From Naegleria gruberi (lineage: Eukaryota), in the NCBI GenBank assembly GCA_000004985.1, contig GG738884.1: a stretch of DNA of 64,000 nucleotides; one strand, written 5' to 3'. Of this stretch, positions 30,093 to 38,000 are shown piece by piece. The first letter of the stretch is position 1, and each line of letters opens with the position of its first letter. A model generated the notes under the pieces. The model ran no database searches. It was given only the letters and a program-made list of their open reading frames with translations, and had not been told where the DNA came from. A program made the translations under genes and the position numbers.

Positions 30093-32284
30093 ATGGAAAA
30101 ATTAAGGGAGATTTTGAATAATTATCCAGACTCTACAGAGGTATCACTTGAGAAGTGTAATTTAACTACCTTGGATGATGTATTGGATTATTTGGGAAAA
30201 TTAGGAAATCTTAAAGTTTTAAGGCTTGGTAATAACTTCCTCTCAAAGCTTCCTTCAGATATGAGCAACATGAAAAAGCTCGAATATTTAGATGTTAGTA
30301 ACAATCCTTTTGGGGATTTGGAAGATATAATGTCAGGCTTGGTTTCTCTCCCTTCCCTAAAACATCTCTACATTTCATTGAACGAAGATGATGAAGATAA
30401 TTTGATTATTAGTATGGCTAATTTGCAATCGTTCAATGGTACACCATTAACAGATATTCCTGATAATGATCCAGCTTTATACAATGAAGAAGATGCTCCT
30501 GGTGAAACTTTTACTTCAAATCCACCTCAAGACTCCTATGCTAACACTGAACAAAACGAAAAAGTTGAATTCAATGAAACAGACCTTGAAAGTAAGTTGT
30601 TTTATCATTTTCCTTAAGGTTGATATTATTAATTAAGGTTCAAGAAAGGTTTACGAAGCATCCTGCTTATTCTTAGGACAAAAGCCTCAATTTTCAAACT
30701 TTGCTGCAGATACTATTGCACATTTAAAGAATAATTTAACAGAGGAAACTGATCACGTTAAGGCAACAATTACCATTTCAAATGCTAATAAGACATTGTA
30801 CGATAGAAGCTTTGAGGATATTATTGGTGTTATTGCAAAATCCGATAAGAAATTATCAAGTGTTTTGGCTATTGTCAAGAGCTCTTACTCTGGCCTCCTA
30901 GATGATTGTTTCACTTTGATGGATAATACTGTTCTTGAATATAATAAGAGAGTTAGATCTTTGCAGAAAGATTTAGATGCAGCAGATGTTGAAATAGGAC
31001 AACTTCTTGAAGCTGCTGAAGCACTTCAACAATCAGCTTCCGACAGTGAAAGTACTAAGAGAAAAGTATTGCTCAGCTGGGAGAAGGAAAGAGAAAGTTT
31101 GTGTGAAGAAATAGGATTCTTAAAGACTGAATTAGAAAGTAAGTTTCATAATTTTCATTCAATATTAACAAATTTTAGAATACAAGAACAGACTTACACA
31201 ATTCCAACTTAATAGACAAAAGATTTCCACACAAATCAATACTTCACCATCCAAACTACTTAAAACACCACAATCACCTTCTACAGGTAATTCACAACTG
31301 AGCAGTAGTACTTTTAAGCTGTCTCAAATTACTGTTAATGTGAATACTAAATCCCTAACTTTGCGTCAATTAAAGGATTTGATCGAAGAAATTTACGCAT
31401 CTAAGCAAAAGTTTGATGAAAAGTGTGCAGAGAGCAGACTTCCCAGAGAAACAATGGAACAACATTTATATACATACCTCAATCAAAAGTATGGTCTTAA
31501 GAATATAATTTTGGATTATGCTTCATCAATTGTCCAAGGTATTAAGAGGTACTCTACTGAAGATAACGATGTTGCTGTATTTGGAAAAATTTTAAGAAAT
31601 GAAATCGATGAAGAATTTAGATTTGTTCAAAAACAATTAAAGGATACTGTAGCTGAATTATTAAAGGTTTTCCTTAGAGGAAAATATACTAAGAAGATGG
31701 ATTCTGAAATTCAAGCAATGCTTCAACAAAGAATGTCTGGAGACATCCTTGAGGAAGAATGGGTTGATATTGTTAAATACATGTACAATAAGGAAGATTC
31801 TGTGAATGTAATTATGAAGGTAACTGAAGCTATTCAAGCCATCCAAAACAAGCTCAACAGAGGAAACAGTAGACAAATTGGGTCAACATCTCCAACTAAA
31901 AGTATTCCAAACAATCAAAATAAGGTTCCATTCAAGATTTTCCTCAAAGTCTTGTTGACATATCAATTGAAAGGTCACGAGCAATTCTTGTACAAGTTTG
32001 TCAAGTTGTTCAGAAAAGTTGATGGAGACAAGAATGGTATCTTGAGTGAAATTGAATTCAAACATTTACTTCACCTTATTAATCCAAATAGATCGGAAAG
32101 TGATTATGCTCAATGGTTGAACTATGTAGATCCTTACAATAATCAACATATAACATTTACTGAATGTGTTACTTTCCTTTCTTCAGAACTCTTAAAGTTA
32201 ATGGGTGAAAAGTCTCAAAATGATTCTGTTGATGAGGAAAATGCGGATGAGGAATTTGAATATGAAAATAATGCTGAAATGTAA
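30093..32284 (+). CDS. Leucine-rich-repeat / coiled-coil / EF-hand protein. Exons 30093..30591, 30638..31138 and 31179..32284. Possibly flagellar or centrosomal.
   Basis: N-terminal LRRs with an LRRcap-like end (LQSFNGTPL), a central coiled coil, and a C-terminal EF-hand loop DGDKNGILSEIEF. Two GTAAGT..AG introns of 46 and 40 nt are both phase 1. Confidence 0.65.
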
Positions 32285-32289
32285 AATAA

Positions 32290-32640
32290 TAAATGGTTTA
32301 CTCTTTCTTATCTTTCTTTCTCTTTTCCTTCTTTTCCTTCTTCTTTTCCTCTGCTTCCTTCTCTTTCTTTTCTTCCTTTTCCTTCTTCTTTTTCTCCTTC
32401 TTTTCCTTCTTTCTCTTTTTCTTCTCCGATTCAGAATCACTGTGATCTGATTCCTCTTCCTTCTTTCTCTTCTTTTCTTCCTTTCCTAACTTTTGTGAAA
32501 AATAGTCATCACTACTGATCTTACTAACTTTGGAATGTGGATCTGGTGTTTCTTCCTTTTCTTCCTTTTCTTCTTTCTTTTCTTTCTTTTCTTCTGTCTC
32601 TTGGTTTGGATTTTTACCTAAAATTGCAGCCAAATCTTCT
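32290..32640. repeat. Strand-asymmetric CT-rich (plus strand) low-complexity DNA encoding the poly-Lys/Glu tail of PinX1
   Basis: Runs of ttcctt, ttctct and cttctt. It generates artefactual ORFs on both strands (32198..32440 minus, 32205..32450 plus). Confidence 0.7.
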
Positions 32641-33074
32641 TGTGAGTAGTGGCTTGTCATCTTCGATCTAGCTCTTCTATGATGGTGAATTCTATTTGTT
32701 TTGGTCTTTGTGACTACTTGTTGTTTTTCATCATCCGATGATGAACTACTTGAGTCCGATGATGATTTATCTGTATTTGTTGTTTTAAGTCTATTCAAAA
32801 TATCCGAGAATGATGATGTTTTTTGACAGACAGTTCTTTCTTTCTTTGCTTCTTCTGTTGCTCCAATACCTGCAGTATCTGTTTTAACTGATACTTTTAC
32901 ATGTTCCGTTATACCATCCTTTCTCTTTCCCAAACCATCACCTTCCTTCCAACCCATCTTTTCTAATAATTTGAATCCGAGTCTTGATTTATCTTCTGCC
33001 CATCTCTTATTGTTTGGGTCATCTTTAAACATGAATTTAGCACTCTTGTACTTTGGCATTTTTTTTATCTTCAA
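32298..33074 (-). CDS. PINX1: PinX1-like G-patch protein with a poly-Lys/Glu C-terminal tail
   Basis: N-terminus KRWAEDKSRLGFKLLEKMGWKEGDGLGKRKDGITEHVKVSVKTDTAGIGA matches the PinX1 G-patch (KFGQRMLEKMGWSKGKGLG...HIKVQVKNNHLGLGA). Confidence 0.75.
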   Translation of the reverse strand: MKIKKMPKYKSAKFMFKDDPNNKRWAEDKSRLGFKLLEKMGWKEGDGLGKRKDGITEHVKVSVKTDTAGIGATEEAKKERTVCQKTSSFSDILNRLKTTNTDKSSSDSSSSSSDDEKQQVVTKTKTNRIHHHRRARSKMTSHYSQEDLAAILGKNPNQETEEKKEKKEEKEEKEETPDPHSKVSKISSDDYFSQKLGKEEKKRKKEEESDHSDSESEKKKRKKEKKEKKKKEKEEKKEKEAEEKKKEKKEKRKKDKKE

Positions 33075-33239: not shown

Positions 33240-33887
33240 TTAATCGGAGGTTTTTAATGCAAGACTTGGAATAAATACATTTTCAACAAGTGGAGATTCA
33301 TCATCATCGTCCTCATCCTCATGATCTTTCAAGTATTTGGTAGAGTGTAAATTTTCATCATGAATATAATTTCCTAAACATGCATTTTGTAAAAATTCTA
33401 ATAAATTATCACAGACTGCAGTTGGAGGTCTTACATCACCTAAAGTTTCATCAACTTCAATTAAATAAATTGATTCCATCTTTGTTAAATTCCATGCATA
33501 ATAGAGTGTTTCTTGAATTCCATCCTTGGCAAAAATTACAAAATTCTTAAATGTAGATTCATAATGTTGTTCCAGAATTGTTTCTGCTGAATTTTCTCTT
33601 TCTTCATCGTTAATCATTCTTAAGAAAATATTTTGAATTCTCTTTGTTTGGAATTTAATATCGAATTGATAATATGTTGATGATGGATAAATACCATACA
33701 AGTGTACTCTTCCTAGTTTTCCACTTCCATATTTTGATAGGAATTGTACATAATCTTTGATGATTTGATTATCTGATGGTATATTTACACTTTTGAATTC
33801 ATTGATCATCTCCTCTTCAGATGGTTTTGGGATCGGAGAAAGAGAAGGAATGTTTCTCAATCTAATCTCCACGTTGAGTGTTTCCAT
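33240..33887 (-). CDS. Hypothetical acidic protein, 215 aa
   Basis: Intron-free ORF between PinX1 and the CEP164-like gene. No family recognised. Confidence 0.4.
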   Translation of the reverse strand: METLNVEIRLRNIPSLSPIPKPSEEEMINEFKSVNIPSDNQIIKDYVQFLSKYGSGKLGRVHLYGIYPSSTYYQFDIKFQTKRIQNIFLRMINDEERENSAETILEQHYESTFKNFVIFAKDGIQETLYYAWNLTKMESIYLIEVDETLGDVRPPTAVCDNLLEFLQNACLGNYIHDENLHSTKYLKDHEDEDDDDESPLVENVFIPSLALKTSD

Positions 33888-33893
33888 TTTTTT

Positions 33894-36194
33894 CTAAGTG
33901 AGTTCATGTTTTAGAGACAACAACCAGTTTCCATGCTTTAAAAACATGTCCCTTTTGTGATCTCTTTCAGATATCCACTTGTCTAACTGATTCTGGAATG
34001 CATTAATTTTTCCTTGTAGGATCTTTCTTCTCTTCTCAGTTTGTTTGAAATAATTATGCCATTTTGTTGAAATCATTTGGTAAGATTGAGATGTTTCATC
34101 TAGATTAGTTTGATCAAGTTCTGGGAATATTTTCTTGTAGGCCTTGTAGTTTTCATCAACAGGTGGTTTGTTTTGGAGCTCAATCTTTTTATGGAGAAGG
34201 GCAAGGTCTTCCTCAATTCTGTTCAATATCTTGGCAAGGTGAGACTTGTTTGTGTCAGAATCACTGCTGCTACTGGTAGATAGACTATTAGGGGAATCAG
34301 GATCTGCAGAAATATATGATTCAAAATGGCTCTGATCAATAATACTATCTTCCAGTACTTTGATTTTCTTCTTTCTTAAAGCAATCAGGTTTTGAATTTC
34401 ATTCACTCTCTTGACATCATTATTCAAGCTGTGAGCTTGCTTTTCCAAATGTTGTTTAACACTCTTCAATATCTTATTCATGTTATGCTGGGATCCATCC
34501 TTAATGATGCTTGTATTCAACATATCAGTCTTCCATTCCTCTCTGGCTTGTTCCAACATTTCTTGTCTTGCTCTAATCGTTTCTTTTTCTTGAGAGCAGA
34601 ATTCTTTTGCCTTCTTTAATTTAAGCTTTTCTTCACTAATCTTCTTTTCAGTTTTTTCCTTATACAGAAGGAATTCAGTGTTTTGTTTAGCTAATTGTCT
34701 TGGAGGGGTATTTTCCTTGTCCAAATCAGATATAGAAAGAGGACTTGGGCTTTCATACTTGTTAGATTGCTTAGGTTTCTTAGTTTTAACCAAAATTGGT
34801 TTAAGAGGTGTTGCTAGAACAGGACTTTTTGGGCCCTGTTGGACTGGTATTGGAGACAAAGTTATTGTCTCTATTTCTACATGCTTATTTGCAGGTAATT
34901 GAATGTCTGCTTGGAGACATTCATCTCTAGTTGTTTTTTCTGTTGTCTGTTGTGACTGGTCAATAGTTACAACTTTCTTAGGGGTAATTTGTCTAGGTTC
35001 ACTTGTTTGAGCAAGCATATCTTTGAATGTTTTGGTTATTGTGTTCACACCATCAGATGTGGTTTTGACTCCATCTGTTTGACAGAGACTTGATATTGTT
35101 TGTATTTCAGTTTGAGTTGTTTTGGAGAGAGAAGTCTTCTTTCTCTCAACTTCCACAATCTTTTCAACTATCTTAGGTTTTTCAACAATCTTTTCGACTA
35201 CTTTTTCAACAATCTTCTCGACTGGTTTCTCTACAATTTTCTCTATAATTTTCTCAACAGGTTTTTCGACAACCTTCTCGACTATCTTTTCTACAATTTT
35301 CTCGACTGGTTTCTCTACAATTTTCTCTACAATCTTCTCAACAAGGACCTTAGTATCAATTTTATCAGTTTGACACTCGATAGCCTTAAACGTCTTTGCT
35401 TCAGTTTGTGCTTGATTTTTCTTCAATCTAGCATTTTCCTCAAACATTTCATCTGCTTCTTGTCTTGCTAATGCTATTTGTTTCCTATTTTCAATAAATG
35501 TATCTTGGAGAGTTTGCTTGTGTTTCTTTTCCATGATATCTTTTTCGGTTTGAAGCTGAGTTATTTTGTTCCTGTACTCAACTTCCATCTTATTCTTATT
35601 CTCTCTAAGATCATTTTCTAGTTTTTCATTCTCATTATTCAAGTGTATTATCTTTTTCTGAAGTTCAATCCTTTCCCTGTTTGATAATTCAAGTTGTTGA
35701 TCTAGAGACCTTATTTTGTCTTGTAATTTGATAAGCTCTTCATTGTTTTGCGGAGATGAAGAACTTGATTCTCTAAGCTTCTTTACAGATGATGAAGAAG
35801 ACAAAGTAGTCATATTAGTAAGAGAAGGTATTTCATCTGATGATCGTAAAGAATTGAGCGGATCAAGTTTTGTTGTTGTAATTTTCTTCTTTTTCTTCTT
35901 TTTTTCCTTTTTCAATTTTTCCCTTTCCTTTGCCACTTTTTCCTTATAATAGGCATCAAGTGGATGATCCCATATTGATTCTCCTGAATTAAAATTAAAG
36001 TAATAAAGTTGACCATCGGACTGACAAGGTCTCCATCCATCAGGTAAGGGAGCTTTTATTCCCTCCAAAGCGATTGGTATTAACTCCTTTTCCAGCACAG
36101 GATCAATACCAAGAAATTCTGCATATTTTAAAACATCCTCTTCAGTAGGCTCTTCTTGCTCGATGAAGATATTGTCATCATCAATAGAACTCAT
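33894..36194 (-). CDS. CEP164-like centriolar distal-appendage protein (N-terminal WW domain plus long coiled coils), 766 aa
   Basis: N-terminus [74 protein letters not shown] matches the CEP164 N-terminal region and WW domain. It also has a central run of about ten VEKIVEKP octapeptide repeats and a Ser-rich C-terminus. Confidence 0.6.
35125..35375. repeat. In-frame 24-nt tandem minisatellite, about 10 imperfect copies, encoding the (V/I)EKIVEKP repeats of the CEP164-like protein
   Basis: Direct repetition of ttctc(g/a)ac(a/t)(a/g)(t/g)tt...tctacaat units is visible. Spurious ORFs 35100..35471 and 35122..35373 arise from it. Confidence 0.7.
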
Positions 36195-36314
36195 TTTTTT
36201 TCACAATATTTTAAAGAGAAACGGTTTTTGTAAGAAAATTGGCGGGAAACTTGTGAGCGCCACTTTAAAATGTAACGATAAAGTTGTTTGAGAATTTAAT
36301 TATTAATAAATAGG

Positions 36315-38000
36315 ATGAGGACCTCAATCTTGAAAACACTTAAAAATAATATTTTTTGCAAAAACAATGAAATTGAAACTTTCAATGCTTTACAACAACA
36401 TTCCACTATGCAAAATACTTGTCAAAAAACAATGCCAAAACACATTACGAATGATTACATTAAATTCAACTCACATCTCTCCTTCATTATTCACGATAAA
36501 GAGTCAGAGAACAACACTGATGATATCAACACTGTGAACAATCACGAATCATTTTATGATGATTTTAAATTTACAACTAGAATGATACCAATTATTGTGA
36601 TTCTCTATTCGGAGGAGGAAGGAAAGTACATTTATCATGATGATGTGAGAAGAGTATGTCCTAGGAATACTTTTCCAAAGTATTTACTTGCTCAATTGCA
36701 GGAAATGTTTGATGATGATCATGGGGTTTATTCAAAATTTGCTTTGATTAAATTGGGTAAATTGGGAATTAGTTTAAAGTGGAGAATATTGGATATTGTG
36801 GAAGAATTGGATGATGGACAGATTGTTAGGAGTGAAAGATATGATTCTGAAGGAGAACCAATTATTTCATTTCAAAAGATTAGTAATAATGAGCTTGATA
36901 TTTGTTTATCTGATTTTATGAATTTATTTAATTTGAAAATTGAATTGTGTCAGAAAGATATTGAGAAATCACAAGTTAAAATTAAGAAAATTGGAACATC
37001 CCACATCATGCCAATTCTTACACAGAATATGATTACATCACTTTTTGAATCAACAACAATTTCGCCTAAAATTAGACGAAATGGCCAATGTGAACATATT
37101 GTATCTTATGCATTATACAAAAACACATGCCTCTCCTATAACTTTAAACTATTCACGTACGAGAATAATGAACAAAAAATTAAGGACACAATTGAGTTTG
37201 AGTTTGATTTTGGTCAATCACTTTTACTAGTCAATCAGAATACGAATGAGATTTATCTAATGGTTTATGGAAATGATCATGGATTTTTCAAAATAATACC
37301 AAAGGGGATCGACTCTTTGGAAAATCATCAAATGGAATTAATTCCATTTGAGAACTATATAGATTTCAAACCAAAAGTGTGGAACAAAAATTCTATTCTG
37401 TCATGTCCGTTAACAGCAAGCAAATATTTGGTTCTCATTCGTGAGGTCAACAACAATGAACAATCAAGTAATAGCTATCAAAGCTTATTCACCAATGAAT
37501 TCAAATGGTTGCTGGTTGATTTAGACTACCATAGAGTAAAGAGAGTCTACCCAAGAGTTTATAAATTGCCTGAAAATGGAGTCAAAAAGAAGAAAGGAAG
37601 AGAAAAGTTTCTTTTCCCAGACGGAGATTTGAATGCAGGATACAGTGATGCCTTATTATTGAGATACATTTCACGATCGAAAGAATCAAAAGAGATTTCC
37701 TTCTCTAAAATAATGAATGAAACCCATTCCTCATTAATTCCAATGCCAGAAAAGCAAACCCTTGAGAATTTATTTGCATTTAGACCATTCCCAGAAAACC
37801 CAGAACTATTCCAAGTGCATTTATCTGTTTCTGATCGTCATTTGATATCCGTTAGGAAGAAGAATAAGAATTTTACACATGGAAAATTCTTTAGGTTTTA
37901 CTTTAAATTCAGAGATGAGGCTACATGTAAATATTCACTTTTATATCTACTTAATGAGAATGGTCAATTTTCAGATGTTTCAATTAAATTTTTTGAATAA
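36315..38000 (+). CDS. Hypothetical protein, 561 aa, no recognisable domain
   Basis: Long intron-free ORF whose codon usage matches the neighbouring genes. Confidence 0.45.
   Translation: MRTSILKTLKNNIFCKNNEIETFNALQQHSTMQNTCQKTMPKHITNDYIKFNSHLSFIIHDKESENNTDDINTVNNHESFYDDFKFTTRMIPIIVILYSEEEGKYIYHDDVRRVCPRNTFPKYLLAQLQEMFDDDHGVYSKFALIKLGKLGISLKWRILDIVEELDDGQIVRSERYDSEGEPIISFQKISNNELDICLSDFMNLFNLKIELCQKDIEKSQVKIKKIGTSHIMPILTQNMITSLFESTTISPKIRRNGQCEHIVSYALYKNTCLSYNFKLFTYENNEQKIKDTIEFEFDFGQSLLLVNQNTNEIYLMVYGNDHGFFKIIPKGIDSLENHQMELIPFENYIDFKPKVWNKNSILSCPLTASKYLVLIREVNNNEQSSNSYQSLFTNEFKWLLVDLDYHRVKRVYPRVYKLPENGVKKKKGREKFLFPDGDLNAGYSDALLLRYISRSKESKEISFSKIMNETHSSLIPMPEKQTLENLFAFRPFPENPELFQVHLSVSDRHLISVRKKNKNFTHGKFFRFYFKFRDEATCKYSLLYLLNENGQFSDVSIKFFE

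What the first reader, a model, noticed from the sequence alone, without database searches (positions are those of the whole stretch)
33894..36194. CEP164-like distal-appendage protein, which implies centrioles or cilia, carrying a coding octapeptide minisatellite
The first 90 residues are strikingly similar to the CEP164 N-terminus, including the WW domain ([30 protein letters not shown] versus [31 protein letters not shown]). This is followed by coiled coils, as in CEP164. CEP164 homologs are restricted to organisms that build basal bodies. Its presence, together with an LRR/coiled-coil/EF-hand gene 1.6 kb away, helps place this AT-rich genome in a flagellated lineage. That is despite a Dictyostelium-like composition. 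The central (V/I)EKIVEKP x10 array at 35125..35375 is a recent in-frame expansion that may be length-polymorphic.
Basis: partly seen in the sequence, partly recalled or inferred. Interest (0 to 1): 0.6.

Follow-up and report, generated by a model that had tools for sequence, protein, structure and literature searches.

The report
Naegleria gruberi CEP164 basal-body gene
This is the ordinary CEP164 gene, a basal-body transition-fibre (distal-appendage) protein, of the amoeboflagellate Naegleria gruberi, with a species-specific tetrapeptide repeat in its middle; it is expected in this organism, not surprising.

Summary
Window 33894..36194 (-) is one intact 766-aa ORF, 100% identical to Naegleria gruberi XP_002674432.1 (NAEGRDRAFT_70383, "predicted protein").

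The CEP164 reading is supported at both ends of the protein:
- Residues 11-95 match the solved human CEP164 N-terminal domain at E=4e-24. Generic WW domains reach only E~1e-6.
- The predicted fold (a WW domain inserted in a three-helix bundle) finds only CEP164 N-terminal-domain structures at the top of the PDB.
- All TTBK2-contacting aromatic residues are conserved.
- A profile of the C-terminal 267 residues alone, which contains no WW domain, retrieves proteins named CEP164. Many of these also carry the CEP164-type N-terminal domain.

The lineage inference is right but trivial. Naegleria is a textbook amoeboflagellate with SAS-6, SAS-4 and visible transition fibres.

The repeat is real but misdescribed:
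- The unit is a tetrapeptide [V/I]EK[I/V/P] of 12 nt, with 14 in-phase copies plus 2-3 degenerate ones at 35145..35342.
- It contains an 84-nt higher-order duplication that is 89% identical.
- It is absent from four other orthologues.
- Units are only 72% identical in DNA, so it is not a fresh minisatellite.

Verdict: a correctly recognised, ordinary orthologue. Low interest.

The parts
33894..36194 (-). Complete intron-less CDS (766 codons plus stop at 33894..33896) of the N. gruberi CEP164 orthologue, NAEGRDRAFT_70383 / XP_002674432.1
   Evidence: ORF list. 100% identity and 100% coverage to the deposited protein. Start and stop positions are shared with orthologues in N. fowleri, N. lovaniensis and Willaertia magna.
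35889..36164 (-). CEP164-type N-terminal domain (residues 11-102): a short N-terminal strand and a three-helix bundle with an inserted WW domain
   Evidence: PDB 7nwj/7o3b at E=3.8e-24. AF2 pLDDT is 81-91, with H18-27, H36-47, strands 54-73 and H80-102. The top five Foldseek hits are all CEP164-NTD; 7o3b aligns at rmsd 0.8 A over 80 columns.
35961..36047 (-). WW domain (residues 50-78) with both proline-binding grooves intact: Y64, F66, F68 and W75 correspond to human Y73, F75, F77 and W84. The linker residues A48, P51, W54, H77 and P78 correspond to human A56, P59, W62, H86 and P87.
   Evidence: Pfam PF00397, 29.1 bits. Alignments. Residue roles are taken from PMC8752127.
35748..35888 (-). 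Lys-rich then Ser-rich disordered linker (residues 103-149)
   Evidence: AF2 pLDDT about 30 with no secondary structure. A poly-K tract after the NTD is also present in CEP164 proteins of other lineages.
35367..35747 (-). Long helix, probably a coiled coil (residues 150-276)
   Evidence: AF2 gives a single helix with pLDDT about 90. Heptad a/d occupancy is 0.59 against 0.49 +/- 0.04 in shuffles, reached by 5 of 500.
35145..35342 (-). In-frame tetrapeptide array [V/I]EK[I/V/P] (residues 285-350). There are 14 in-phase 12-nt units at 35175..35342, organised as two 84-nt (28-aa) halves, followed by a truncated unit and two degenerate units.
   Evidence: TRF, sequence and codon parsing. The array is absent from N. 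fowleri and N. lovaniensis, is aligned in Willaertia to non-repetitive coiled-coil sequence, and is reduced to a 2-unit seed in the unnamed orthologue P0294. AF2 gives short helices broken at each Pro, with pLDDT below 50.
34698..35144 (-). Disordered Q/T/S/P-rich linker (residues 351-499) with recurrent QT[D/E/T] motifs at conserved alignment positions
   Evidence: AF2 pLDDT 26-34. The invariant QT columns Q365/T366, Q372/T373, Q396/T397 and Q416/T417 appear in A1. QT dipeptides occur about 3 times more often than composition predicts in all four orthologues.
33897..34697 (-). Conserved helical C-terminal region (residues 500-766), homologous to the C-terminal region of CEP164 in other eukaryotes and the presumed basal-body targeting part
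   Evidence: BLASTP aligns 519-619 with Bombina CEP164 1003-1098, collinear, E=2e-6. A profile of this region alone finds 51 proteins at E<=1e-3 in 1.84 billion. At least 10 of them carry the CEP164 NTD at their own N-terminus. Named examples are JGI 'centrosomal protein CEP164', a Branchiostoma 'centrosomal protein of 164 kDa-like' cluster and Gefionella. AF2 helices have pLDDT 85-94.

Best explanation
The ORF is the Naegleria gruberi orthologue of CEP164, the conserved component of basal-body transition fibres (centriole distal appendages).

Shown here:
- It has the full family architecture in compact form, 766 aa against about 1,460 aa in human.
- Its N-terminal domain has a class II/III-like WW domain inserted in a three-helix bundle.
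- Every aromatic residue that lines the two proline-binding grooves is conserved.
- A roughly 127-residue coiled-coil helix follows, then a disordered spacer, then a helical C-terminal region of about 265 residues.
- That C-terminal region is homologous to the C-terminus of CEP164 in animals, malawimonads and many uncultured eukaryotes.

Inferred from the family, not shown:
- When Naegleria amoebae differentiate into flagellates and build two basal bodies de novo, the C-terminal region anchors the protein on the transition fibres.
- The coiled coil and the spacer project the N-terminal domain outward.
- The WW grooves capture a proline-rich ligand. In vertebrates this is the kinase TTBK2; the partner in Naegleria is unknown.
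- This capture licenses membrane docking and axoneme outgrowth.

The [V/I]EK[I/V/P] array is a lineage-specific in-frame expansion inside the spacer. It grew from a short pre-existing IVKE/VVEK seed by slippage or unequal exchange of 12-nt units, followed by one 84-nt duplication. It most likely just lengthens a flexible, proline-punctuated linker reminiscent of PEVK sequences and adds no new function.
For: Identity and organism.

N-terminal domain:
- PDB phmmer gives E=3.8e-24 to human CEP164 1-109, against 1.7e-6 for the best non-CEP164 WW domain.
- BLASTP to Bombina CEP164 gives E=4e-26.
- The AF2 model is confident. Foldseek's top five hits are all CEP164-NTD entries, while isolated WW domains align over only about 30 residues at E=0.06-0.1.
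- Human Y73, F75, F77 and W84 (the XP and XP2 grooves) and A56, P59, W62, H86 and P87 (the linker), as defined in PMC8752127, are identical in Naegleria and in 14 other orthologues.

C-terminal region, independent of the WW domain:
- There is a collinear second HSP to Bombina CEP164.
- The profile search retrieves proteins that carry the CEP164 NTD and are named CEP164.
- The alignment shows shared motifs: AKEF..QEK..IR.RQ..LE.AR.EWK.D, ILK.VK..LE.QA..LN, KW..YF and H..WL..(F/L)(R/K).E.

Biological context:
- Naegleria basal bodies have transition fibres, and the genome has SAS-6, SAS-4, delta- and epsilon-tubulin and POC1 (PMC4819266).
- CEP164 proteins are among the most widely conserved transition-fibre proteins across basal-body-forming eukaryotes, in a survey whose proteome set included N. 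gruberi (PMC11190437).

Repeat.
Against: There are no experimental data for this protein. I found no localisation, knock-down or expression record in the papers I could read.
- The differentiation microarray paper (PMC2987438) and Hodges et al. 2010 are not held.
- The 2016 Naegleria basal-body review does not list CEP164 among predicted components.

Other limits:
- Whether Naegleria has a TTBK2-like ligand could not be tested.
- Human R93, which is mutated in ciliopathy, is Lys here. Lys is also the common residue in the non-vertebrate orthologues aligned.
- In Trypanosoma brucei the family has three paralogues with partly different roles (PMC11190437). Membership therefore does not fix the exact function, and the paralogue number in N. 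gruberi was not determined.
- The coiled-coil part is much shorter than in animals.
Confidence: 0.9

Rival explanations
1. It is a generic WW plus coiled-coil protein that shares only the WW module with CEP164 and is not an orthologue.
For: Pfam recognises only a WW domain, just above its cut-off (29.1 against 26.9 bits), and nothing else. The public records call the protein and its orthologues 'predicted protein' or 'WW domain-containing protein'.
Against: The match to CEP164 covers 85 residues, including the helices that flank the WW domain. It is 18 orders of magnitude better than any other WW domain. The predicted fold matches the whole CEP164 NTD. The WW-free C-terminal region independently finds CEP164 proteins.
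Confidence: 0.03
2. It is a CEP164-family member with a function shifted from canonical docking. One example would be a regulator of flagellum length or timing, like T. brucei CEP164C. Another would be one of several N. gruberi paralogues that divide the ancestral roles.
For: Trypanosomes have CEP164A, B and C at transition fibres. Some transition-fibre proteins there affect flagellum length rather than assembly (PMC11190437). The Naegleria protein is half the length of the animal one and has a lineage-specific spacer. Naegleria builds and discards basal bodies on demand, an unusual regime (PMC4819266, PMC11772885).
Against: No second heterolobosean family appeared in the C-terminal profile search or among the listed hits of the full-length search. 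The ligand-binding grooves and C-terminal motifs are fully conserved, which argues for a retained core mechanism.
Confidence: 0.07
3. The VEKx array is a young, hypervariable coding minisatellite that differs in length between N. gruberi isolates.
For: The array is tandem, in frame and absent from the other orthologues. Two 84-nt blocks are 89% identical, which shows a comparatively late duplication.
Against: The 12-nt units are only 72% identical on average. There are 158 synonymous against 69 non-synonymous codon-pair differences. This is the signature of an old array that has drifted at silent sites while the peptide was kept. Such interrupted arrays slip poorly. Only one N. gruberi sequence is available, since the cluster has a single member, so polymorphism is untested.
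Confidence: 0.2

Closest known systems
Human CEP164 (distal-appendage protein; NTD structures 7nwj, 7o06, 7o0s; TTBK2 complex 7o3b)
   Same: The N-terminal domain is about 50% identical over 85 residues and has the same WW-in-helical-bundle fold. All groove and linker residues are identical. A poly-Lys tract follows the NTD. Then come a coiled coil and a homologous helical C-terminal region, in the same order.
   Different: The Naegleria protein is 766 aa against about 1,460 aa (the human length is from my own knowledge). Its coiled coil is far shorter. The acidic, Ser/Pro-rich region between the NTD and the coiled coil is largely missing. Human R93 is K84 here. The N-terminal strand GDQLVLEE reads DDNIFIEQ and sits 5 residues closer to helix 1. 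The VEKx array and the QT-rich spacer have no counterpart. The TTBK2 partnership is unverified.
Heterolobosean orthologues: N. fowleri FDP41_011464, N. lovaniensis C9374_003731, Willaertia magna ABK040_008877
   Same: They are collinear end to end, with 43-55% identity. The NTD core and C-terminal motifs are near-identical, and start and stop positions are shared.
   Different: They lack the VEKx array. Willaertia has a different, non-repetitive coiled-coil insertion at that place.
Trypanosoma brucei CEP164A/B/C (transition-fibre proteins)
   Same: These are discoban CEP164-family proteins with an N-terminal WW domain and long C-terminal helices. They have been localised to transition fibres (PMC11190437).
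   Different: There are three paralogues in T. brucei. I saw evidence for only one gene in Naegleria, but this was not tested proteome-wide. I made no direct sequence comparison here.
PEVK-type and other proline-punctuated charged low-complexity spacers
   Same: The array has a V/E/K/P-rich composition, a short periodic unit and a 28-residue super-repeat. Its predicted structure is low-confidence and broken by prolines.
   Different: This is a resemblance of composition only, recalled from memory, with no homology implied. The many bacterial 'flap endonuclease-like' hits to this segment are likewise compositional.

Membership tests
CEP164 | An N-terminal domain in which a WW domain is inserted into a three-helix bundle, as opposed to an isolated WW domain | tested here: met
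   phmmer gives E=3.8e-24 over residues 11-95 against 7nwj. The AF2 model is confident. The top five Foldseek hits are CEP164-NTD entries, with TM up to 0.84 and rmsd 0.8 A against 7o3b.
CEP164 | Conserved proline-ligand grooves (human Y73/W84 for XP, F75/F77 for XP2) and inter-domain linker residues (A56, P59, W62, H86, P87) | tested here: met
   All are identical in the Naegleria protein: Y64, W75, F66, F68, A48, P51, W54, H77 and P78 (alignments). Residue roles come from PMC8752127.
CEP164 | Coiled-coil or long helical middle part | tested here: met
   AF2 gives a helix at 150-276 with pLDDT about 90. The heptad signal exceeds the shuffles; 5 of 500 reach it. This part is much shorter than in animals.
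CEP164 | Homologous C-terminal region, the part needed for centriole localisation in human cells (that role is from my own knowledge of Schmidt et al. 2012) | tested here: met
   There is a collinear BLASTP HSP at E=2e-6. The C-terminal-only profile retrieves NTD-bearing proteins named CEP164.
CEP164 | Reciprocal best hit at proteome scale | tested here: inconclusive
   The forward direction is clear. CEP164 is the best PDB hit, the first named eukaryotic hit outside Heterolobosea in the full-length search, and the name carried by hits of the C-terminal profile. The reverse search, CEP164 against the N. gruberi proteome, could not be run because no proteome was available.
CEP164 | Localisation to distal appendages or transition fibres, and requirement for basal-body docking or ciliogenesis | not testable with these tools
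   This needs microscopy or knock-down. The structure itself, transition fibres, exists in Naegleria (PMC4819266).
CEP164 | Binding of TTBK2 or an equivalent proline-rich partner through the WW domain | not testable with these tools
   The groove residues are conserved, but no Naegleria partner could be sought.
Coding minisatellite (hypervariable tandem repeat) | Tandem head-to-tail units with high inter-unit identity and length variation between individuals | tested here: inconclusive
   The tandem array is confirmed. However, mean unit identity is only 72%, and only one N. gruberi allele is available. Length variation is untested.

The most novel reading that the evidence does not exclude
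This compact protein may be a near-minimal natural CEP164: the NTD, one 127-residue coiled coil, a spacer and the C-terminal region. Under this reading, the N. gruberi-specific proline-punctuated VEKx array and the conserved QT[D/E] motifs of the disordered spacer are functional. The array would act as an elastic ruler that sets how far the WW domain reaches from the transition fibre, and the QT motifs would be regulated, perhaps phosphorylated, sites. They might be tuned to basal bodies that are assembled de novo, docked within about an hour and later discarded. None of this was tested. The evidence only shows that the spacer motifs are conserved and that the array keeps its peptide sequence despite silent-site drift.
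Probability: 0.1. Interest if true: 0.4.

Novelty: already known. Interest (0 to 1): 0.15.

Why it matters
It matters little beyond annotation.
- The public record for NAEGRDRAFT_70383 still reads 'predicted protein' or 'uncharacterized protein'. Its Naegleria orthologues read 'hypothetical protein' or 'WW domain-containing protein'. [quoted passage not shown]
- The short length and the clear conservation of a C-terminal region of about 265 residues across very distant eukaryotes could make this protein a handy construct for studying the structurally uncharacterised centriole-targeting end of CEP164.
- Finding CEP164 in Naegleria changes no view of centriole evolution. The family is already regarded as ancestral to eukaryotes that build basal bodies (PMC3144413; PMC11190437).

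Tried and rejected
- A second large-database search with only the 94-residue NTD as plain letters returned '1 candidate, none scored'. This looks like a tool failure on a short query and is not evidence. It cost one of three searches.
- The full-length search was swamped by bacterial 'flap endonuclease-1-like' and other proteins that match only 5-27% of the query. The matched segment is presumably the VEKx array, though I did not check its coordinates. I treat these hits as compositional and ignore them.
- The look-up of encoding contigs has no record of this exact protein, so no independent contig or second allele could be fetched.
- Literature: Hodges et al. 2010 (DOI and PMC2858018) and Fritz-Laylin & Cande 2010 (PMC2987438) are not held. 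The locus tag appears in no searchable paper. The supplements of PMC11190437 and PMC10802493 hold nothing on this gene. I therefore could not confirm from text that N. gruberi CEP164 was scored as present, or that it is induced during differentiation. That Hodges et al. included Naegleria and found CEP164 broadly conserved rests on my memory.
- Clustering of basal-body genes was considered and rejected. The other ORFs of the window are housekeeping or signalling genes: SET, Brix, class II aldolase, ALG6/8, TANGO6/RTP1, RasGAP, Tim44, DNA primase large subunit, Fes1, G-patch, F-box, RPAP2, cyclin, PAS, RGS, RCC1/EGF and DUF4116.
- Read-through into the downstream ORF was considered, because that ORF is in the same frame 6 nt after the stop. 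I rejected it because all four orthologues end at the same residue.
- I tried to name the LRR/EF-hand neighbour through the PDB. Only calmodulin-like matches to the EF-hand pair came back.
Full report
**What is at the coordinates**

Window 33894..36194 on the minus strand is one uninterrupted ORF of 766 codons with an ATG start. The large protein database holds it at 100% identity and 100% coverage as a Naegleria gruberi 'predicted protein'. Its accessions are EFC41688.1, XP_002674432.1, UniRef100_D2VN62 and locus tag NAEGRDRAFT_70383. So the window is N. gruberi nuclear DNA. GC content is about 32% across the window. Full-length collinear orthologues exist in N. fowleri (55% identity), N. lovaniensis (54%) and Willaertia magna (43%). 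They share the same start region and the same stop position. The gene model is therefore sound and under purifying selection.

**Is the N-terminus CEP164 or just a WW domain?**

Pfam sees only a WW domain at residues 50-78, with 29.1 bits against a cut-off of 26.9. The search against solved structures is much more telling.
- Residues 11-95 align with human CEP164 1-109 (7nwj, 7o3b) at E=3.8e-24 and about 50% identity.
- The best non-CEP164 WW domain, in a YAP1 fusion, reaches only 1.7e-6 and covers only the 35-residue WW core.
- BLASTP against a full-length amphibian CEP164 (Bombina, P0069) gives 53% identity over 81 residues, E=4e-26.

An AlphaFold2 model built on the four heterolobosean sequences is confident for residues 13-100, with pLDDT 81-91. 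It shows helix 18-27, helix 36-47, a three-stranded sheet at 54-73 and helix 80-102. [quoted passage not shown] In the Foldseek search of the PDB, ranks 1-5 are all CEP164-NTD entries. 7o3b aligns at rmsd 0.8 A over 80 columns, and TM scores reach 0.84. Isolated WW domains (FE65, Pin1) follow at E=0.06-0.1 and cover only about 30 residues.

The residues that the structural paper identifies as functional are all identical in Naegleria and in 14 other orthologues from very different sources:
- Human Y73 and W84 (the XP groove) correspond to Y64 and W75.
- Human F75 and F77 (the XP2 groove) correspond to F66 and F68.
- Human A56, P59, W62, H86 and P87 (the linker) correspond to A48, P51, W54, H77 and P78.

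Human R93 is Lys here, as in most of the non-vertebrate orthologues aligned. The N-terminal strand GDQLVLEE is recognisable as DDNIFIEQ.

**Independent evidence from the other end of the protein**

The same pairwise BLASTP shows a second, collinear HSP. Naegleria 519-619 aligns with Bombina CEP164 1003-1098 at E=2e-6.

I then built a profile from residues 500-766 of the four heterolobosean proteins only, with no WW domain in it (A2). I searched it with HMMER against 1.84 billion representative proteins.
- It found 51 proteins at E<=1e-3, 13 of them at E<=1e-10.
- I tested these hits with the Naegleria NTD as query. Ten long ones carry a CEP164-type NTD at their own N-terminus at E=1e-25 to 1e-32. 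These are P0127, P0128, P0130, P0133, P0153, P0155, P0164, P0166, P0167 and P0168.
- Two more hits, P0123 and P0124, begin inside the NTD.
- The named clusters among the hits are JGI 'centrosomal protein CEP164' and Gefionella okellyi (a malawimonad transcriptome). P0168's cluster holds Branchiostoma floridae 'centrosomal protein of 164 kDa-like'. Diphylleia rotans is a further hit (P0132) that was not among the NTD-positive proteins.
- In several hits the match runs to the very C-terminus, for example profile positions 11-268 against 651-891 of an 899-aa protein.

A multiple alignment shows shared motifs: AKEF..QEK..IR.RQ..LE.AR.EWK.D, ILK.VK..LE.QA..LN, KW..YF and H..WL..(F/L)(R/K).E. Both ends of the protein are thus homologous to CEP164, in the same order. 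That is the signature of orthology rather than domain sharing.

**The middle of the protein**

- Residues 103-149 are a Lys-rich then Ser-rich disordered linker.
- Residues 150-276 are one long helix with pLDDT about 90. It has a heptad signal: a/d hydrophobic occupancy is 0.59 against 0.49 +/- 0.04 in shuffles, reached by 5 of 500.
- Residues 285-350 are the repeat.
- Residues 351-499 are disordered, with pLDDT about 30.
- Residues 500-766 form four long helices with pLDDT 85-94.

The protein is therefore a compact CEP164, about half the length of the human one. The human length is from my own knowledge.

**The repeat**

TRF reports periods of 12 nt (9.9 copies) and multiples of it. The best row is 84 nt x 2.0 copies at 89% match, score 275. 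Reading the codons gives the following picture.
- There are 14 in-phase tetrapeptides at 35175..35342 (residues 285-340): [28 protein letters not shown] | [28 protein letters not shown]. These form two 28-residue halves that are 89% identical in DNA.
- A truncated KI unit, then VEKI and VEVE, extend the array down to 35145.
- Pro sits at units 3, 7, 10 and 14.
- Mean pairwise identity of the 12-nt units is 72%. Codon-pair differences are 158 synonymous against 69 non-synonymous, and the non-synonymous ones fall almost entirely at the fourth position.

The array is missing in N. fowleri and N. lovaniensis. In Willaertia it is aligned to non-repetitive coiled-coil sequence. An unnamed Naegleria-like metagenomic orthologue (P0294, 56% identical) has only IVTKEIVKEIIK, and further on KVVEKP, at this place. 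That looks like the seed from which the array grew.

So the expansion is specific to the N. gruberi lineage. It is not young at the unit level. The last visible event is the 84-nt duplication, now 11% diverged. AF2 gives short helices broken at each proline, with pLDDT below 50. I read the array as a lengthened flexible spacer. Length polymorphism between isolates could not be tested, because only one N. gruberi sequence exists in the collections.

**Context and the lineage inference**

Naegleria is the classic amoeboflagellate that assembles two basal bodies de novo. EM shows fibres radiating from the triplets that are taken to be transition fibres. The genome encodes gamma-, delta- and epsilon-tubulin, SAS-6, SAS-4, POC1, MKS1 and MKS3 (PMC4819266).

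CEP164 is counted among the proteins that arose with the ancestral centriole and cilium (PMC3144413). It is among the most widely conserved transition-fibre proteins in a survey whose proteome set included N. gruberi (PMC11190437).

I could not find a text that names this particular gene as CEP164. The two most relevant older papers are not held. From memory, Hodges et al. 2010 scored CEP164 across eukaryotes, including Naegleria.

The rest of the window is housekeeping and signalling genes with no basal-body clustering.

The ORF pieces at 30093..30617, about 30796..31212 and 31340..32284 (+) belong to one gene.
- A 518-aa homologue with Pfam LRR_4 (P0256) maps to both the first and the last piece.
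- The first piece has clear LRRs (LRR_4, E=1.9e-13).
- The last piece has an EF-hand just under the Pfam cut-offs, but its homologues carry EF-hand Pfam hits.
- The 314-aa C-terminal part is 50-64% identical to proteins from trypanosomes, the euglenid Eutreptiella, the ciliate Ichthyophthirius, Carpediemonas and many uncultured eukaryotes. All of the named source organisms are flagellated or ciliated.
- It has no solved relative other than calmodulin for the EF-hand pair.

This is consistent with, but does not prove, a flagellar or basal-body role.

**Mechanism**

Shown here: the domain architecture, the conserved ligand grooves and the conserved C-terminal region.

Inferred from the family:
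- The C-terminal region targets the protein to the transition fibres.
- The coiled coil mediates self-association and projection. Self-interaction of the human protein is mentioned in PMC8752127.
- The NTD binds a polyproline-II ligand, in the way human CEP164 binds TTBK2 1074-1087.
- This binding triggers the steps that lead to docking and axoneme extension.

The partner in Naegleria is unknown. The existence of three trypanosome paralogues with partly distinct roles is a caution against assuming identical function.

**Verdict**

The result is an ordinary orthologue of a well-known, ancestrally conserved family in a sequenced model organism, plus a lineage-specific low-complexity insertion. 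Interest is low (0.15). The only practical outcome is a better label for NAEGRDRAFT_70383 and its Naegleria and Willaertia orthologues.

Noticed in passing
window 30093..32284 (+): This is a multi-exon gene with N-terminal LRRs, a conserved central domain that no Pfam family covers, and a C-terminal EF-hand pair. The last 314 aa are 50-64% identical to proteins of trypanosomes, Eutreptiella, Ichthyophthirius, Carpediemonas and many uncultured eukaryotes. All named sources are flagellated or ciliated. It has no PDB relative beyond calmodulin. It is a candidate conserved but unnamed flagellar or basal-body protein.
   Followed up: partly
window 33240..33887 (-): A 215-aa ORF with weak, sub-threshold SUKH/SMI1-KNR4 similarity starts only 6 nt after the CEP164 stop codon, on the same strand and in the same frame. 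The orthologues show that the CEP164 stop is genuine. The real start of this gene is probably a later Met, for example M27 at the start of MINEFK, about 85 nt downstream. This would leave almost no room for a 3' UTR plus a promoter.
   Followed up: partly
window 36195..36314: Only 120 nt separate the CEP164 start codon from the divergently transcribed 561-aa ORF at 36315..38000 (+), which has no Pfam match. The two genes must share a very short bidirectional promoter region.
   Followed up: no
window 34698..35400 (-), protein residues about 260-430: QT dipeptides, mostly [S/A/C/V]QT[D/E/T], occur 9-13 times per protein in all four heterolobosean orthologues, against about 3 expected from composition. 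Several sit in invariant alignment columns within an otherwise poorly conserved disordered spacer. They may be short linear motifs or modification sites.
   Followed up: partly
P0122 (Acrasis kona KAL0488782.1, 530 aa), not in the window: Acrasis kona is an aggregative heterolobosean amoeba. As far as I recall it has no described flagellate stage; I did not confirm this. It keeps a protein with the complete CEP164 C-terminal region (E=4.7e-33), but no CEP164 NTD was detected in the deposited model. Either the gene model is truncated or the WW end has been lost. A 2025 phylogenomic paper cited in PMC12731214 speaks of cryptic flagellate stages in Heterolobosea.
   Followed up: partly
window 32298..33074 (-) and 32198..32450 (both strands): A G-patch protein gene (PF01585, E=5e-18) ends in a long Lys/Glu-rich tail (KKEKKE...). 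The same DNA gives spurious long ORFs in other frames and on the opposite strand. This is a reminder that low-complexity coding DNA inflates ORF lists here.
   Followed up: no
window 33894..36194 (-), search behaviour: The full-length query drew more than 100 strong-looking hits (E down to 1e-63) to bacterial 'flap endonuclease-1-like 5' DNA nuclease' and helix-hairpin-helix proteins. Each covers only 5-27% of the query, presumably the VEKx array, although I did not check the matched coordinates. I treat them as compositional. They could mislead automated annotation.
   Followed up: yes
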